From the NCBI RefSeq assembly GCF_050920415.1, contig NZ_CP169309.1: 64,000 nt of DNA, one strand, 5' to 3'. Shown here in pieces: positions 30,019 to 47,405 of this stretch. Both the position numbers and the translations under genes were made by a program. The notes under the pieces are model-generated. The model had not been told where the DNA came from, made no database searches, and saw only the letters and a list, made by a program, of their open reading frames with translations. Origin of the DNA: Escherichia coli (GTDB lineage: Bacteria; Pseudomonadota; Gammaproteobacteria; Enterobacterales; Enterobacteriaceae). The stretch's first letter is position 1. Every line of letters begins with the position of its first letter.

Positions 30019-30735
<717 letters not shown>

Positions 30736-30742
30736 TTAAATC

Positions 30743-30806
30743 TATCACCGCAAGGGATAAATATCTAACACCGTGCGTGTTGACTGTTTTACCTCTAGCG
30801 GTGATA
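30743..30806. promoter_or_regulatory. OR3-OR2-OR1 operators with pRM/pR
   Basis: TATCACCGCAAGGGATA, TAACACCGTGCGTGTTG, TACCTCTAGCGGTGATA; -35 TTGACT and -10 GATAAT for pR. Confidence 0.8.
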
Positions 30807-30832
30807 ATGGTTGCATGTACTAAGGAGGTTGT

Positions 30833-31033
30833 ATGGAACAACGCATAACCCTGAAAGATTATGCAATGCGCTTTGGGCAAACCAAGACAGCTAAAGATCT
30901 CGGTGTATATCAAAGCGCGATCAACAAGGCCATTCATTCAGGCCGAAATATTTTTTTAACTATAAACGCTGATGGAAGCGTTTATGCGGAAGAGGTAAAG
31001 CCCTTCCCAAGTAACAAAAAAACAACTGCATAA
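30833..31033 (+). CDS. cro: Cro repressor, lambda type
   Basis: 66 aa, near-identical to remembered lambda Cro. Confidence 0.9.
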
Positions 31034-31171
31034 GTAACACCGCTATTTTCACAATGGACATTCGTCCTACGTCGCTGACAAAGCGAGTCCCAAGATATCT
31101 GACCAACTAAGGCCATATGCGTTTCCACGCATACCTTTCAACTAACTATTCACTATTGGAAATCTTAAGAA

Positions 31172-31468
31172 ATGGAACGAACAAGTTACAGCAAACTATC
31201 ACAGCGTGACGTTGATCGCGCAGAAACAGATTTACTCATCAACCTATCAACGCTTACCCAGCGCGGTCTGGCAAAGATGATTGGCTGTCATGAATCGAAG
31301 ATAAGCAGAACGGACTGGCGGTTTATTGCTTCGGTCTTGTGTGCTTTCGGAATGGCATCAGACATCAGTCCGATTAGCAGGGCTTTTAAGTATGCGCTTG
31401 ATGAAATCACCAATAAAAAACGCCCGGCGGCAACCGAGCGTTCTGATCAAATACAAATGGAATTTTAA
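31172..31468 (+). CDS. cII: CII-like transcriptional activator (mosaic)
   Basis: 98 aa; C-terminal TNKKRPAATERSDQIQMEF matches lambda CII, N-terminal ~75 aa diverge. Confidence 0.65.
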   Translation: MERTSYSKLSQRDVDRAETDLLINLSTLTQRGLAKMIGCHESKISRTDWRFIASVLCAFGMASDISPISRAFKYALDEITNKKRPAATERSDQIQMEF

Positions 31469-31630
31469 CAACATCCAACGAGGTAATTATATGCGAAAAA
31501 CGCAGGAAAATAAACGCGTTAATCACCGAAAAGATGTGCTACGTGACCAGTTTTATCAGGGGGTTAATCCAGCAATAGCTGTGCCACTGAGAGAAATACT
31601 TAACAGGTACAAAACTTCGGAGAAGTCAAA

Positions 31631-32407
31631 ATGAGCATGAATCTTATGGCTAAGGCCATGAATATAAAGGTTGGCAACCCACTGAGAAAACTGGTTCTGA
31701 TTAAACTTGCCGATAACGCCAATGATAATGGCGAATGCTGGCCTTCATATCAACATGTCGCTGACCAGTGTGAGGTGAGCAGATCGACAGTAAAAAGTCA
31801 CATTAGGGCACTGGAAGAGATGGGGCTTTTGAAAAGGGAATTCAGAAGAAAAGGAGAGCTTAACCAGTCAAACGTTTTTTATCTGACGCTGGATAATGCA
31901 CAACAAATCCAACCAGAATCAGGTGGGGCAGGAGCTGCCCGGGGTGGGGCAGGAGCTGCCCTAGGGGGTGGGGCAGGAGCTGCCCCCAGAACCTATCACT
32001 CTTTTGAACCAGTCAATGAACCTAAAAACATTATGTTCGAACATGTCCGAACGGAGTGTGAAAAAACTCCTGACCGTCACGAAGAAACCGACAAGGCATT
32101 CGAGGAAATATTCTGGTGTGCAGGCATGCGGAAGGCCGGGAAGAAAAACGCAGCGTCGGCATTCAGAACACAGTTCAGGGAATGGCGTAAAACTACCAGG
32201 GGTACGGCAAGCGAGTTTGCCACGATGCTGGCAGAAGACATCGCATGCAGGAATGGTAAGCAGTTCGGATTCGACAGGTTGTTACCATCGAGCTACCTGA
32301 ACGGTCAACGCTGGAACGACGAGAAGCCAGAAACTATTCAACCACAATCCAAACCATCATCCGCAATCACCGTATCGAAAACTGGCTACGTGTTTTTCGA
32401 CAGGTGA
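31631..32407 (+). CDS. replication initiator (O-like, HTH N-terminus) containing origin iterons
   Basis: 258 aa; internal Gly/Ala-rich segment encoded by the iterons; position between cII and helicase. Confidence 0.6.
   Translation: MSMNLMAKAMNIKVGNPLRKLVLIKLADNANDNGECWPSYQHVADQCEVSRSTVKSHIRALEEMGLLKREFRRKGELNQSNVFYLTLDNAQQIQPESGGAGAARGGAGAALGGGAGAAPRTYHSFEPVNEPKNIMFEHVRTECEKTPDRHEETDKAFEEIFWCAGMRKAGKKNAASAFRTQFREWRKTTRGTASEFATMLAEDIACRNGKQFGFDRLLPSSYLNGQRWNDEKPETIQPQSKPSSAITVSKTGYVFFDR
31923..31985. repeat. three 18-bp direct repeats GTGGGGCAGGAGCTGCCC, candidate ori iterons
   Basis: Copies at 31923-31940, 31944-31961, 31968-31985; each internally near-palindromic. Confidence 0.55.
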
Positions 32408-32514
32408 ACCATGAAATCAAAAATCAAATCGCTACTGGTCGCTGGTTATAACCACGGCTGGTTAAGTATTTCGTTTGTCGATTTCTGGTTTAAAAATCTC
32501 AATCTGAGGGAATC

Positions 32515-34395
32515 ATGACGCCAAGTGAACTTAGCGACCTGCTTTGGGCGCAGGTTGACAGGGTGGCTCCGCACCTGTTGCCAAACGGCAAGAAAGAGGG
32601 GCATGAGTGGGTTGCCGGTAACGTCAACGGTGACAAGGGAAACAGCCTTAAGGTCAACCTTAGCGGCAAGAAAAAATGGGCTGATTTCGCTGAGGGAGAC
32701 GGCGGTGACATGCTTGATTTGTGGATGGCATGTCGTGGAATTAACCTGCATCAGGCTATGCAGGAAGCGAAAGCCTTTCTCGGTATCAAGGATGACGATC
32801 ACCATTTCGATGCCAAACGTGAGAAGAAATTCTCCAGACCTGATCGCAAGAAAATCGCCCGCTACGTTACCAGAACAGAATCCCATCTTGAGTACCTGCA
32901 ATCGCGTGGCATATCGCCAGAAGTCGTAAAGCGCTACGAGGTTGTCAGCGGCAAGGTGTGGAATGGAGAACGAGAACTTGATGCACTGGTGCTTCCGTAC
33001 AAACGCGATGGTGAGTTGTTGCAGGTCAAGCGAATCAGCACTGAGCGCCCGGACGGGAAGAAAGTCATTATGGCAGAAGGTGATTGTGAACCTTGTCTGT
33101 TCGGATGGCAGGCTCTGGACGCTGGCGTGAGGGCGGTTGTGCTTTGCGAAGGCGAAATTGATTGTATGAGCTATGCGCAATACGGCATCTCGGCGTTATC
33201 CGTGCCGTTTGGTGGAGGAAAAGGCGCTAAGCAGCAGTGGATTGAGTTTGAGTATCACAACCTCGACAGGTTTGAGGAAATATTCATCTCGATGGACGTT
33301 GATGATGTTGGTCGTGAAGCCGCAAGGGAAATCGCAAGCCGACTCGGTGAACATCGTTGCCGTCTTGTTACTCTGCCGTACAAAGACATCAACGAATGCC
33401 TGATGAACGGTGTTACCGAGGATGAAATCTGGCAGTACATCGGCACGGCATCCTACTTCGATCCTGAAGAACTCTACAGCGCGCGAGAGTTTTACCAGGA
33501 CACTATCAACGCTTTCTACGGCAAGCAGCAGTATCTATTTAATCCACCGTGGGAATCTCTGGCAGATAAATTCCAGTTCCGTGAGGCCGAGTTGACGCTG
33601 GTCAATGGTGTGAACGGTCACGGAAAAACGGAGGTTGTCGGGCATATGGCACTTGAGGCAATGCGTCAGGGTGTGAAGACGTGCATCGCGTCACTTGAGC
33701 TGAAGCCTGGTATTCTCCTTAAGCGCCTTACCCGTCAGGCAACGTGCTGCAAGATGCCGCCAGTGCTTGAAATTGACTCTGCATTTAAATTCTATGACGA
33801 AAGACTTTGGGTGTTTGGCCTGACCGGAACGGCGAAAGCCGACAGGTTGATCGAAATATTCGACTACGCTCGCCGCCGATACGGCATCCAGTTATTCATC
33901 ATCGACAGCCTGATGAAATGCGGCATAGGTGACGATGACTATAACGGGCAGAAAGCATTTGTTGACTCGATTTGCGACTTCAAAAACAAAACAAACTCCC
34001 ACGTCATTCTCGTTACTCACTCCAGAAAAGGAGACAGCGAAGAAAAACCAACCGGGAAAATGGACGTAAAAGGCTCTGGAGCGATAACAGACCTGACAGA
34101 CAACCTTTTCATCATCTGGCGTAACAAGGCTCGCGAGAGAGCGTTACAGAGAGTTCAGAGTGGTGAAAAGATGTCAGAGAAGGACGAACAGCTACTGGCA
34201 TCTCCGGCATCTGTTTTGATGCTTGAAAAACAACGTAACGGCGAAGGTTGGGAAGGTGGTGTCCCGTTGTTCCTTGACGAGCAATCGCACCAGTTCCTGC
34301 AACTTGAATCAGGATCGCCTTATAGCTACATCGCCAATATGCCGAAATCGGAATATGACGAGGCGTGGCGACAGGAAAACGTGACGGAGTATTAA
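32515..34395 (+). CDS. primase (toprim) / DnaB-like helicase fusion replication protein
   Basis: 626 aa; toprim-like VVLCEGEIDCMSY, Walker A GVNGHGKT, Walker B-like LFIIDSL. Confidence 0.65.
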   Translation: MTPSELSDLLWAQVDRVAPHLLPNGKKEGHEWVAGNVNGDKGNSLKVNLSGKKKWADFAEGDGGDMLDLWMACRGINLHQAMQEAKAFLGIKDDDHHFDAKREKKFSRPDRKKIARYVTRTESHLEYLQSRGISPEVVKRYEVVSGKVWNGERELDALVLPYKRDGELLQVKRISTERPDGKKVIMAEGDCEPCLFGWQALDAGVRAVVLCEGEIDCMSYAQYGISALSVPFGGGKGAKQQWIEFEYHNLDRFEEIFISMDVDDVGREAAREIASRLGEHRCRLVTLPYKDINECLMNGVTEDEIWQYIGTASYFDPEELYSAREFYQDTINAFYGKQQYLFNPPWESLADKFQFREAELTLVNGVNGHGKTEVVGHMALEAMRQGVKTCIASLELKPGILLKRLTRQATCCKMPPVLEIDSAFKFYDERLWVFGLTGTAKADRLIEIFDYARRRYGIQLFIIDSLMKCGIGDDDYNGQKAFVDSICDFKNKTNSHVILVTHSRKGDSEEKPTGKMDVKGSGAITDLTDNLFIIWRNKARERALQRVQSGEKMSEKDEQLLASPASVLMLEKQRNGEGWEGGVPLFLDEQSHQFLQLESGSPYSYIANMPKSEYDEAWRQENVTEY

Positions 34396-34421
34396 ATGAC
34401 CATCTACATCACTGAGCTAAT

Positions 34422-34452
34422 AAAAGGCCTGCTGGTAATCGCAGGCCTTTTT
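34422..34452 (+). terminator. tR2-like intrinsic terminator before ninB
   Basis: AAAAGGCCTGC-loop-GCAGGCCTTTTT perfect inverted repeat with flanking A/T runs. Confidence 0.55.
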
Positions 34453-34472
34453 ATTTGGGGGAGAGGGAAGTC

Positions 34473-34913
34473 ATGAAAAAACTAACCTTTGAAATTCGAT
34501 CTCCGGCACATCAGCAAAACGCTATTCACGCGGTACAGCAAATCCTTCCAGACCCAACCAAGCCAATCGTAGTGATCATTCAGGAGCGCAACCGCAGCTT
34601 AGACCAGAATCGGAAGCTTTGGGCTTGCCTTGGTGACGTCTCTCGTCAGGTTGAATGGCATGGGCGTTGGCTGGATGCAGAAAGCTGGAAGTGTGTGTTT
34701 ACCGCAGCATTAAAGCAGCAGGATGTTGTTCCTAACCTTGCCGGGAATGGCTTTGTGGTAATAGGCCAGTCAACCAGCAGGATGCGTGTAGGCGAATTTG
34801 CGGAGCTATTAGAGCTTATACAGGCATTCGGTACAGAGCGTGGCGTTAAGTGGTCAGACGAAGCGCGACTGGCTCTCGAATGGAAAGCGCGATGGGGAGA
34901 TCGGGCTGCATGA
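34473..34913 (+). CDS. ninB: NinB (Orf recombination mediator)
   Basis: MKKLTFEIRSPAHQQNAIHAVQQILPD near-identical to remembered lambda NinB. Confidence 0.85.
   Translation: MKKLTFEIRSPAHQQNAIHAVQQILPDPTKPIVVIIQERNRSLDQNRKLWACLGDVSRQVEWHGRWLDAESWKCVFTAALKQQDVVPNLAGNGFVVIGQSTSRMRVGEFAELLELIQAFGTERGVKWSDEARLALEWKARWGDRAA

Positions 34914-47167: not shown

Positions 47168-47405
<238 letters not shown>

What the first reader, a model, noticed from the sequence alone, without database searches (positions are those of the whole stretch)
31923..31985. Three 18-bp iterons inside the replication initiator gene
GTGGGGCAGGAGCTGCCC is repeated three times within the O-like ORF and encodes a Gly/Ala-rich linker, analogous to lambda ori within O. 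Downstream, a toprim/DnaB-type primase-helicase replaces lambda P.
Basis: seen in the sequence. Interest (0 to 1): 0.3.

Follow-up and report, generated by a model that had tools for sequence, protein, structure and literature searches.

The report
Phage replication origin inside initiator gene
Three exact DNA repeats inside a prophage replication-initiator gene are very probably the sites where that protein binds to start copying the phage genome, an expected lambda-like design in a different, poorly annotated protein family, with an unusually frozen DNA element next to the repeats.

Summary
GTGGGGCAGGAGCTGCCC occurs three times exactly (31923, 31944, 31968), against 0.01 expected by chance. 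The repeats lie in a 258-aa ORF (31631-32407), between an N-terminal winged-helix domain (Pfam HTH_36) and a C-terminal domain. A Toprim/DnaB-type primase-helicase follows.

The iteron/origin interpretation is well supported by comparison, but it has not been tested experimentally.
1. Phages with a near-identical C-terminal half and the same primase-helicase (epsilon34, Sf101) carry a lambda-O-type N-terminus with their own iterons at the same position.
2. All 11 diverged N-terminal homologs examined carry their own repeats there.
3. In nine related alleles the same 16-bp motif is read in two frames of one ORF (GAGAA and GQELP). The DNA is what is conserved, not the peptide.
4. Iteron sequence covaries with the recognition helix (partial r=0.70, p<=5e-4).
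5. Copy number ranges from 2 to 6.

One new point: the 39 bp after the last repeat (31985-32023) have frozen synonymous sites across phages of eight genera, and are found only with this initiator family.

The module is the Stx-phage type phi24B O2/P2, also called "Eru5". The papers I could read describe no origin for it. I class it as a new member of a known kind, of moderate interest.

The parts
31631..32407 (+). Replication initiator gene (258 aa), 'O-like'. It has an N-terminal winged-helix domain, a disordered linker that contains the origin DNA, and a C-terminal partner-specific domain.
   Evidence: ORF. Pfam HTH_36 E=5e-14. PHROGs 'replication initiation protein / O-like'. One amino-acid difference from phi24B 'O'. 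AF2 model: residues 1-89 pLDDT 76-90, residues 90-150 pLDDT about 30.
31631..31897 (+). Coding region of the winged-helix DNA-binding domain (aa 1-89). The predicted recognition helix is aa 51-63, at 31781-31819.
   Evidence: AF2 secondary structure is H-H-H-H followed by a beta-hairpin wing. Foldseek finds only generic winged-helix proteins. Divergence in the helix region tracks iteron divergence.
31923..31940 (.). Iteron 1 (GTGGGGCAGGAGCTGCCC; dyad GGGGCAG/CTGCCC)
31944..31961 (.). Iteron 2, 21 bp after iteron 1
31968..31985 (.). Iteron 3, 24 bp after iteron 2. It abuts the invariant element.
31985..32023 (.). Invariant 'anchor' element CCCAGAACCTATCACTCTTTTGAACCAGTCAATGAACCT. The family consensus has AGT where the window has TAT. 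It contains direct GAACC(A/T)(G/A)TCA 10-mers. Its 3' end coincides with the mosaic junction between the N-terminal and C-terminal modules.
   Evidence: In 19 alleles with 55-97% N-terminal identity, every sequence that shares the majority amino acid uses a single codon at 11 of the first 12 positions. In the wHTH domain the major codon accounts for 53% of sequences at conserved residues (p=2e-4). All 105 assessable sites in IMG/VR lie downstream of this wHTH family. Homology to Sf101 and epsilon34 starts at about 32023.
32024..32059 (.). Most A+T-rich stretch of the gene (63-70% A+T in 30-nt windows from 31991 to 32040), with a perfect 12-bp palindrome ATGTTCGAACAT at 32033-32044. This is a candidate unwinding region.
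   Evidence: A+T profile. Palindrome I2, and sequence read directly. Sf101 and epsilon34 have a related palindrome (TCCGAAAG(T/C)GTTCGGA) after a much more A+T-rich tract.
32023..32407 (+). Coding region of the C-terminal module of the initiator. It is shared at about 98% nt identity with the ES18/epsilon34/Sf101/mEp043-type O proteins and ends in the tail ...TVSKTGYVFFDR.
   Evidence: The tail co-occurs with the primase-helicase in 13 of 13 alleles.
32411..32518 (+). Small 35-aa ORF between the initiator and the primase-helicase, at the position of epsilon34 gene 51 / ES18 gp60. Function unknown.
   Evidence: Sequence read directly. Annotated 108-nt counterpart in epsilon34.
32515..34395 (+). 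Bifunctional primase-helicase (626 aa) with a zinc-finger/DnaG-like N-terminus, a Toprim domain and a DnaB-like (SF4) helicase. It lacks the intein present in the phi24B copy.
   Evidence: Pfam Toprim_2, AAA_25 and DnaB_C. PHROG 239. TIGR01391 dnaG N-terminal region. blastp against phi24B P shows an insert of about 330 aa only in phi24B, described as an intein in PMC3430580.
30019..31468 (.). Upstream control region: cI (30019-30732, minus strand), cro (30833-31033) and cII (31172-31468). Rightward early transcription from here runs into the initiator gene.
   Evidence: Pfam Cro and Phage_CII. 99.6% identity to HK97 cI/cro. A promoter-like site at 30780-30808 on the + strand.

Best explanation
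The three repeats are the iterons of this prophage's replication origin, and the origin lies inside the gene for its own initiator.

Inferred mechanism:
- After derepression, rightward early transcription produces the 258-aa initiator.
- Dimers of its N-terminal winged-helix domain bind the three dyad-symmetric 17-bp sites. These are spaced about two helical turns apart (21 and 24 bp) and would form a lambda 'O-some'-like complex.
- This complex destabilises the adjacent DNA, meaning the invariant 39-bp element at 31985-32023 and the somewhat A+T-richer palindromic stretch that follows it.
- The initiator's C-terminal module and tail recruit the phage's own Toprim/DnaB-type primase-helicase. 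That enzyme replaces lambda P together with host DnaB and DnaG.

The Gly/Ala peptide encoded by the repeats is a tolerated by-product lying in a disordered linker.

What is shown here: the repeats, their position, DNA-level conservation independent of reading frame, modular co-exchange with the DNA-binding domain, covariation with the recognition helix, and linkage between the C-terminus and the partner gene.

What is inferred: binding, dimeric stoichiometry, the site of unwinding, and recruitment of the helicase.
For: 1. The repeats are real and non-random.
2. They sit exactly between a confidently predicted winged-helix domain and the C-terminal domain, in a stretch predicted to be disordered.
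3. Modular swap: epsilon34, Sf101 and mEp043 share the C-terminal half and the primase-helicase at about 98% nt identity. They have a lambda-O-type N-terminus with their own arrays at the same position (4 lambda-type ATCCCTCAAAA..GGGA sites, or a TGTCAC/GTGACA-type array). In epsilon34 the array is annotated as the putative origin.
4. All 11 N-terminal homologs examined have their own array at gene nt 265-375 (400 in phiP27). The period is 21-24 bp in most and 15 bp in SfIV and phiP27.
5. In nine alleles the identical motif GGGGCAGGAGCTG(C/A)CC occurs in two reading phases of one open ORF, read as GAGAA/GAGAD and as GQELP/T, with spacings that are not multiples of 3.
6. Among 70 unique alleles, iteron divergence correlates with divergence of the recognition-helix region (r=0.75; partial r=0.70 controlling for the preceding 40 aa; permutation p<=5e-4). 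It does not correlate with the rest of the domain once the helix is controlled for (-0.10). The dyad centre is at the same position in 22 of 23 iteron classes.
7. Copy number varies from 2 to 6 among near-identical alleles. Lambda-type origins of Stx phages likewise vary between 4 and 6 iterons (PMC7466680).
8. The primase-helicase shows no DNA-binding domain beyond the zinc-finger/Toprim/helicase domains, so origin recognition must come from another protein (inference).
9. It is established that lambda O, P22 gp18 and phage L gp18 each bind distinct iterons within their own coding regions (PMC8022706).
Against: - There is no experimental evidence for binding or origin activity in any member of this family in the literature I could search.
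- The region next to the iterons is only modestly A+T-rich (63-70%), unlike the long A/T tract after the iterons in epsilon34 and Sf101. The unwinding site is therefore uncertain.
- Individual dyad scores are weak for many iteron classes (P from 0.002 to 0.9).
- The covariation statistics are not fully corrected for phylogeny.
- Tandem arrays also homogenise by slippage, which contributes to the identity between copies.
Confidence: 0.8

Rival explanations
1. The repeats are only a slippage-prone, low-complexity Gly/Ala linker with no cis-acting role, and the origin lies elsewhere.
For: The encoded peptide lies in a predicted disordered segment. Copy number varies between 2 and 6 among close alleles, as expected for slippage. 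The exact identity of the three copies would fit a recent duplication.
Against: The same DNA motif is kept in two reading frames that give unrelated peptides (GAGAA and GQELP) within single ORFs. The repeats have a conserved dyad centre and change together with the recognition helix. Unrelated N-terminal domains bring their own arrays to the same position. A peptide-linker model predicts none of these.
Confidence: 0.05
2. The repeats are binding sites for the initiator or another protein, but they serve autoregulation, a transcriptional roadblock or titration rather than origin firing.
For: The covariation evidence shows a protein-DNA match, not origin function. Iterons in plasmids also act in copy-number control (established knowledge of iteron plasmids). 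Only a weakly A+T-rich region is adjacent.
Against: At the homologous position, sister phages with the same C-terminal half and the same helicase carry lambda-type iterons, and lambda-type iterons are the experimentally defined origin in lambda itself (PMC7466680). No other repeat cluster was seen within the cII-to-primase-helicase interval scanned (31400-32600).
Confidence: 0.08
3. The conserved object is an RNA structure: three G+C-rich hairpins in the initiator mRNA that modulate its translation or stability.
For: Each unit can form a 7-bp G+C-rich stem with a 3-nt loop (sequence). Nucleotide-level conservation independent of frame would also fit an RNA element. One variant, GGGTCAG...CTGACC, changes both arms symmetrically.
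Against: The very common variant CTGACC, present in all copies in SI5 and L075, breaks a stem pair without compensation. Several iteron classes have poor self-complementarity (4-5 of 8 pairs) yet remain repeated and phased. Correlation with the recognition helix and spacing of about two helical turns are properties of a protein-DNA site. No Rfam family matches.
Confidence: 0.04

Closest known systems
Bacteriophage lambda O protein and ori-lambda
   Same: The origin lies in the middle of the initiator gene. Tandem, dyad-symmetric iterons are spaced 20-24 bp apart between the coding regions of the N-terminal DNA-binding domain and the C-terminal partner-binding domain. Iteron number varies between relatives. 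The gene is transcribed from the rightward early promoter after cro and cII.
   Different: The N-terminal domain is Pfam HTH_36, not Phage_rep_O, and I could detect no sequence homology. The iterons are G+C-rich (76%) and there are three rather than four. The flank is a conserved 39-bp element with only 63-70% A+T, instead of a long A/T tract. The partner is a phage primase-helicase, not the lambda P helicase loader.
ES18 / epsilon34 / Sf101 / mEp043 replication module (O-like protein, small ORF, primase-helicase)
   Same: The C-terminal half of the initiator from window position 32023, the small ORF and the primase-helicase are about 98% identical at the nucleotide level to Sf101 and mEp043 and about 88% to epsilon34.
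   Different: Those phages have a lambda-O-type N-terminal domain with lambda-type or TGTCAC-type iterons and a strongly A+T-rich tract (PMC2629481). The window has the HTH_36 domain, GGGGCAG iterons and the invariant anchor.
Stx phage phi24B 'O2/P2' replication system, also called the 'Eru5' replication type (Stx2a_F403, Min27)
   Same: The initiator differs by one amino acid and has the identical three repeats. The primase-helicase is the same. Both papers treat these genes as the replication module (PMC3430580; PMC8951638).
   Different: The phi24B primase-helicase carries an insert of about 330 aa (an intein) that is absent here. The window prophage has HK97-type immunity. Neither paper mentions repeats or an origin.
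P22 gp18 and phage L gp18 origins
   Same: Distantly related or unrelated ori-binding proteins, each with its own iterons inside its own coding region (PMC8022706).
   Different: The repeat sequences and lengths differ (11-bp repeats in L), and the partner is a DnaB-type helicase (gp12). No invariant flanking element is reported for them.
RepA_N plasmid and satellite initiators (pSK41, pTZ2162, PLE RepA)
   Same: An N-terminal winged-helix-type domain binds semi-palindromic direct-repeat iterons, and a variable C-terminal domain is specific to the host or partner (PMC7145576). Solved RepA_N structures appear among the fold matches (4pql, 4pt7, 5kbj; E 0.013-0.03).
   Different: There is no Pfam RepA_N match, and the fold matches are no better than those to generic MarR/ArsR regulators. 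RepA_N iterons converge on a poly-A tract; these do not.
T7 gp4 / P4 alpha-type bifunctional primase-helicases
   Same: A zinc-finger/Toprim primase fused to an SF4 (DnaB-like) helicase in one polypeptide.
   Different: From established knowledge, P4 alpha recognises its own origin through a C-terminal DNA-binding domain. No such extra domain is detected here, and origin recognition appears to be delegated to the separate O-like protein (inference).

Membership tests
Lambda-type origin architecture (iterons inside the initiator gene) | Tandem direct repeats located within the initiator ORF, between the DNA-binding and partner-binding domain coding regions | tested here: met
   Three exact copies at 31923-31985, lying between the wHTH domain (aa 1-89) and the C-terminal module that begins at 32023.
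Lambda-type origin architecture (iterons inside the initiator gene) | Each iteron has internal dyad symmetry and neighbouring iterons are about two helical turns apart | tested here: met
   7 of 8 symmetric pairs (P=0.02). Spacing is 21 and 24 bp, compared with 20, 24 and 23 bp in the lambda-type array of epsilon34.
Lambda-type origin architecture (iterons inside the initiator gene) | A+T-rich unwinding region immediately distal to the iterons | tested here: inconclusive
   31991-32040 is the A+T maximum of the gene but reaches only 63-70%, far less than the tract in epsilon34 and Sf101.
Lambda-type origin architecture (iterons inside the initiator gene) | The initiator binds the iterons, and the fragment supports replication when the initiator is supplied | not testable with these tools
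   Only indirect support is available: helix-iteron covariation (partial r=0.70), frame-independent conservation and modular co-exchange.
Lambda O protein family (Pfam Phage_rep_O) | N-terminal origin-binding domain homologous to lambda O | tested here: not met
   No Phage_rep_O hit at E<=0.01. hhalign of the HTH_36-type profile against the lambda-O-type profile gives probability 0.3%. Both profiles are shallow, so very remote homology is not excluded.
Lambda O protein family (Pfam Phage_rep_O) | C-terminal domain paired with a lambda-P-type helicase loader | tested here: not met
   The downstream gene is a Toprim/DnaB-type primase-helicase.
Pfam HTH_36 (PF13730) phage 'replication initiation O-like' proteins | Score above the curated Pfam threshold | tested here: met
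   52.2 bits against a cut-off of 25, at aa 17-67. Matches PHROGs 4617, 270, 8540 and 391, annotated as replication initiation.
phi24B O2/P2, also called the Eru5 replication module | Near-identity of the HTH_36 gene and the adjacent primase gene to the type phages (phi24B, Min27, Stx2a_F403) | tested here: met
   97.4-98.3% nt identity over 98-99% of 31100-34500. The O protein differs by one residue. The helicase is 96-99% identical outside the intein.
RepA_N plasmid initiators | RepA_N (PF06970) N-terminal domain | tested here: not met
   RepA_N is not among the Pfam hits. Structural matches to 4pql, 4pt7 and 5kbj have E 0.013-0.03, no better than generic wHTH regulators.
Bifunctional primase-helicase (T7 gp4-like, PHROG 239) | Toprim primase domain plus SF4/DnaB-like helicase domain in one protein | tested here: met
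   Toprim_2 47.1 bits (cut-off 22.1). AAA_25 28.0 bits (cut-off 27). DnaB_C 23.8 bits, which is below its cut-off of 27. PHROG 239 E=2e-171.

The most novel reading that the evidence does not exclude
Origins of this HTH_36 initiator family have two parts. The first is a fast-evolving specificity part: iterons that co-evolve with the recognition helix, with at least 28 types seen. The second is a universal 39-bp core (consensus CCCAGAACCAGTCACTCTTTTGAACCAGTCAATGAACC, made of GAACCAGTCA direct repeats) whose synonymous sites are frozen in phages of at least eight gamma-proteobacterial genera. On this reading the core is a sequence-specific unwinding or helicase-loading element, recognised by the conserved part of the initiator or by a host factor. 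It would be analogous to the sequence-specific 13-mers of oriC and RK2 oriV, rather than a generic A+T-rich tract. It also serves as the fixed junction at which N-terminal (origin-specificity) and C-terminal (replisome-partner) modules are exchanged.
Probability: 0.4. Interest if true: 0.55.

Novelty: new member of a known kind. Interest (0 to 1): 0.4.

Why it matters
This replication module is carried by Stx2a phages of E. coli O157:H7 (phi24B, Min27, Stx2a_F403; the 'Eru5' type). The initiator gene matches in 304 of 5,426 complete E. coli genomes (in 96 of them over at least 80% of its length), and there it is annotated only as 'helix-turn-helix domain-containing protein'.

Phage replication drives Shiga-toxin production, and the Eru literature argues that replication type influences virulence (PMC8044961, PMC8951638). 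No origin has been defined for this type. Pinpointing the iterons gives several direct handles:
- synonymous recoding experiments;
- construction of ori-plasmids;
- predictions of incompatibility and specificity from the helix-iteron pairs.

The family-wide table of recognition helix against iteron is a natural data set for reading a winged-helix recognition code. The frozen anchor element is a testable candidate for a sequence-specific unwinding or loading site.

Tried and rejected
- A profile-profile comparison of the HTH_36-type N-terminus with the lambda-O-type N-terminus found nothing (probability 0.3%). The profiles were shallow (10 and 2 sequences), so this rejects membership by sequence only.
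- A PDB sequence search found nothing at E<0.28.
- Foldseek against PDB gave only generic winged-helix matches, none at E<=0.001. I therefore did not file the protein under RepA_N or DnaD.
- NCBIfam gave no meaningful family for the initiator.
- Rfam gave only a chance hit to a eukaryotic snoRNA model (20 bits against a gathering score of 100).
- The promoter/terminator scan found no excess over shuffles. A terminator-like hairpin on the minus strand at 32052-32035 is simply the palindrome.
- TRF missed the two-copy array of phage SI5; it was found by alignment.
- I inspected the anchor by eye for DnaA-box (TTATCCACA) and IHF (WATCAANNNNTTR) consensus matches. No convincing match exists in the family consensus. 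This was my own reading of the sequence, not a tool result.
- Literature searches for a prior description of these repeats ('Eru5'; iterons with O-like; the phi24B genome paper) found none. The library is limited to open-access papers, so an earlier description cannot be excluded.
- My initial impression that the repressor is lambda cI was corrected: the immunity region is 99.6% identical to HK97.
Full report
**1. Observation**

The 18-mer GTGGGGCAGGAGCTGCCC occurs exactly three times, at 31923-31940, 31944-31961 and 31968-31985. It occurs nowhere else in the 64-kb window, even with three mismatches allowed. Shuffles give a mean of 0.01 matches. TRF scores this array highest in the window. The repeat finder extends the unit to 21 nt, with spacing of 21 and 24 bp. 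Each unit carries the dyad GGGGCAG-GAG-CTGCCCC, with 7 of 8 symmetric pairs. The array is a 76% G+C spike in a gene of 49% G+C.

**2. Context**

The window holds a lambdoid prophage early-right operon.
- The cI/cro region is 99.6% identical to HK97, and cII follows (Pfam Phage_CII).
- Next comes a 258-aa ORF at 31631-32407 that contains the repeats, then a 35-aa ORF.
- A 626-aa protein follows, with Toprim_2 and AAA_25/DnaB_C domains (PHROG 239 'DNA primase/helicase', E=2e-171), and then ninB.
- The 258-aa protein has an N-terminal HTH_36 domain (E=5e-14) and matches several PHROGs annotated 'replication initiation (O-like)'.
- An AlphaFold model gives a confident winged helix for residues 1-89 (pLDDT 76-90). 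Residues 90-150, which include everything encoded by the repeats, are predicted disordered (pLDDT about 30).

**3. The same module elsewhere**

The region is 97-98% identical to Stx2 phages phi24B, Min27 and Stx2a_F403/F451. The phi24B 'O' protein differs by one residue and has the same three repeats.
- The phi24B genome paper calls this system O2/P2 and notes an intein in P. It never mentions repeats or an origin (PMC3430580).
- Fagerlund et al. classify the type as 'Eru5' (an HTH_36 protein plus a primase), again with no mention of repeats or an origin (PMC8951638).
- The initiator gene matches in 304 of 5,426 complete E. coli genomes, and in 96 of them over at least 80% of its length. PGAP names it only 'helix-turn-helix domain-containing protein'.

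**4. Evidence that the repeats are a cis-acting site bound by the N-terminal domain**

(a) *Modular exchange.* Many phage hits begin at window position 32023, just downstream of the repeats. Sf101, mEp043 and epsilon34 share the C-terminal half of the protein and the primase-helicase. Their N-terminus is of the lambda-O type. At the same position they carry their own arrays: four lambda-type ATCCCTCAAAA..GGGA sites in epsilon34 (annotated there as the putative origin) and a TGTCAC/GTGACA-type array in Sf101 and mEp043. So the DNA-binding domain and the repeats travel together, while the C-terminus and the helicase travel together. This matches the classical lambda picture.

They come from phages of Salmonella, Pectobacterium, Klebsiella, Pseudomonas, Vibrio, Shigella, Aggregatibacter and Escherichia. 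All have a tandem array at gene nt 265-375 (400 in phiP27), each with a different sequence. The period is 21-24 bp, or 15 bp in the most distant pair.

(c) *Independence from reading frame.* A scan of IMG/VR for the repeat core found alleles with 2 to 6 copies. In nine diverged alleles with an intact ORF, the same motif GGGGCAGGAGCTG(C/A)CC is read in two phases, as GAGAA/GAGAD and as (V/P)GQELP/T. The spacings there are 17, 22, 38, 41 or 46 bp. The DNA is therefore what is conserved, and the Gly/Ala peptide is a by-product.

(d) *Covariation.* In 70 unique alleles, each type of recognition helix goes with one type of iteron:
- (G/S)RS(T/S)VK.H with GGGGCAGGAGCTG(C/A)CC
- SK(S/T)AVRNHIDALE with TATGCCACCAGATGGCAC
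- SKSAVKAHITALI with TGTGCCGTCAGATGACAC
- RRSVMNHI with TAGTGCAGGAG.T.CAC

Iteron distance correlates with distance in the helix region (r=0.75; partial r=0.70 given the preceding 40 residues; permutation p<=5e-4). It does not correlate with the rest of the domain once the helix is controlled for (-0.10). The dyad centre falls at the same position in 22 of 23 iteron classes. These statistics share phylogeny and are not fully corrected for it. The contrast with the adjacent invariant element, described next, serves as an internal control.

**5.

Immediately after the last repeat lies a 39-bp element at window 31985-32023: CCCAGAACCTATCACTCTTTTGAACCAGTCAATGAACCT. The family consensus has AGT where the window has TAT.
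- I compared 19 alleles whose N-terminal domains are 55-97% identical. Where they share the majority residue, they all use one and the same codon at 11 of the first 12 positions.
- In the winged-helix domain of the same sequences, conserved residues use the major codon only 53% of the time, with 3.5 codons per column (Mann-Whitney p=2e-4).
- Mean pairwise divergence is 6.7% for this element against 29% for the neighbouring iteron.
- An IMG/VR scan for its 19-nt core found 110 sites. All 105 assessable sites lie in the same frame downstream of this winged-helix family, and at least 28 different iteron sequences precede them.
- The element consists of direct GAACCAGTCA repeats, and it ends exactly at the mosaic junction with the C-terminal module.

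Its function is open. My preferred reading is a sequence-specific unwinding or loading element. A junction sequence homogenised by recombination is the main alternative.

**6. Downstream anatomy and partner**

The A+T maximum of the gene (63-70%) lies at 31991-32040 and includes a perfect 12-bp palindrome, ATGTTCGAACAT, at 32033-32044. This is far less A+T-rich than the tract in epsilon34 and Sf101, so I score the 'AT-rich region' criterion as inconclusive.

The extreme C-terminus covaries with the partner gene:
- ...TVSKTGYVFFDR is followed by the primase-helicase in 13 of 13 alleles, even when the central C-terminal domain differs (as in SI5).
- ...HWNSPEGWKDFI is followed by the same partner ORF in 20 of 20 alleles; in phage RothD that ORF is annotated 'replication protein P'.

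The primase-helicase shows no DNA-binding domain beyond its primase zinc finger. This fits origin recognition being delegated to the O-like protein, which is an inference.

**7. Mechanism**

Most likely (confidence about 0.8), the three repeats are iterons of the prophage origin.
- Initiator dimers bind the dyads on roughly the same face of the helix.
- The complex destabilises the adjacent anchor/palindrome region.
- The C-terminal module recruits the phage primase-helicase, which replaces lambda P together with host DnaB and DnaG.

The anatomy, DNA-level selection, co-exchange and covariation are shown here. Binding, stoichiometry, the melting site and recruitment are inferred.

The rivals are a pure slippage linker, a regulatory-only binding site, and mRNA hairpins. 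The evidence summarised in the rival entries makes each of them unlikely.

**8. Comparison with what is known**

The origin works like ori-lambda (PMC7466680). It also fits the general rule, stated for lambda O, P22 gp18 and L gp18, that each binds its own iterons within its own coding region (PMC8022706).

It is not a member of the lambda O protein family by sequence. It is a member of Pfam HTH_36 and of the phi24B O2/P2 (Eru5) module. RepA_N plasmid initiators share the logic of a winged-helix N-terminal domain, semi-palindromic iterons and a variable C-terminal domain (PMC7145576). Membership in that family is not supported.

**9. Verdict**

I found no description of this origin in the open-access papers I could search. 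The idea itself is well established, so I class it as a new member of a known kind. The added value lies in the frame-independence proof, the helix-iteron table across the family, and the frozen anchor element. The anchor is the most novel lead.

Noticed in passing
window 31985-32023: An invariant 39-bp element directly after the last repeat. Its synonymous codon positions are frozen across phages of eight genera, it is found only with this winged-helix initiator family, and it is built of GAACCAGTCA direct repeats. It sits exactly at the mosaic junction between the N-terminal and C-terminal modules.
   Followed up: yes
window 32369-32407 (initiator C-terminal tail) and 32515-34395; loci L137-L216: The last 12 residues of the initiator covary with the downstream partner gene. 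TVSKTGYVFFDR goes with the primase-helicase in 13 of 13 alleles, and HWNSPEGWKDFI goes with a P-like protein in 20 of 20. This holds even when the central C-terminal domain differs (SI5), which suggests the tail is the determinant that recruits the partner.
   Followed up: partly
window 32515-34395 versus L001 2922-5828 (phi24B P): The window's primase-helicase (626 aa) lacks the insert of about 330 aa present in phi24B P (968 aa). The insert lies after about residue 372, in the helicase domain. The phi24B paper describes it as an intein, so this copy is an intein-free allele.
   Followed up: yes
window 30019-31033: The immunity region (cI, cro and the operators) is 99.6% identical to phage HK97, HK106 and mEp234. 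It is joined here to an Stx-phage-type (phi24B/Eru5) replication module, a mosaic combination different from the Eru5 type phages.
   Followed up: partly
window 32028-32059: A perfect 12-bp palindrome, ATGTTCGAACAT (32033-32044), next to a repeated ATGT(T/C)CGAAC. Phages with the lambda-type N-terminus have a related palindrome, TCCGAAAG(T/C)GTTCGGA, at the same place. This is the start of the shared C-terminal module. It could be part of the origin or could simply be coding sequence.
   Followed up: partly
window 31492-31634 and 32411-32518: Two small ORFs (47 aa and 35 aa) flank the initiator gene. Each overlaps the next gene's start codon in an ATGA. Counterparts are annotated in epsilon34 and Sf101. 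Their function is unknown.
   Followed up: partly
window 31862-31871: AACCAGTCAA, the 10-mer of the invariant element, also occurs 145 bp upstream, within the coding region of the wing of the DNA-binding domain. This may be chance.
   Followed up: no
plasmid hits H110 (NZ_CP118695.1, Klebsiella) and H111 (NZ_CP129515.1, Enterobacter): These plasmid records match the query only over nt 315-401 or 331-395 (last repeat plus anchor) inside genes annotated 'helix-turn-helix domain-containing protein'. This is consistent with the anchor being conserved in otherwise diverged genes, possibly on phage-plasmids.
   Followed up: no
window 47313-47358: A perfect tandem hexamer, CAGAGC x 7.7 (100% matches, TRF score 92). 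Three ORFs of at least 80 aa overlap it on both strands. I did not investigate it.
   Followed up: no
E. coli genome hit H99 (NZ_LT599830.1, a 41-kb record): The initiator gene spans 840 bp instead of 777 bp and aligns in two pieces. This is consistent with about three extra repeat copies. IMG/VR locus L122 has six copies.
   Followed up: no
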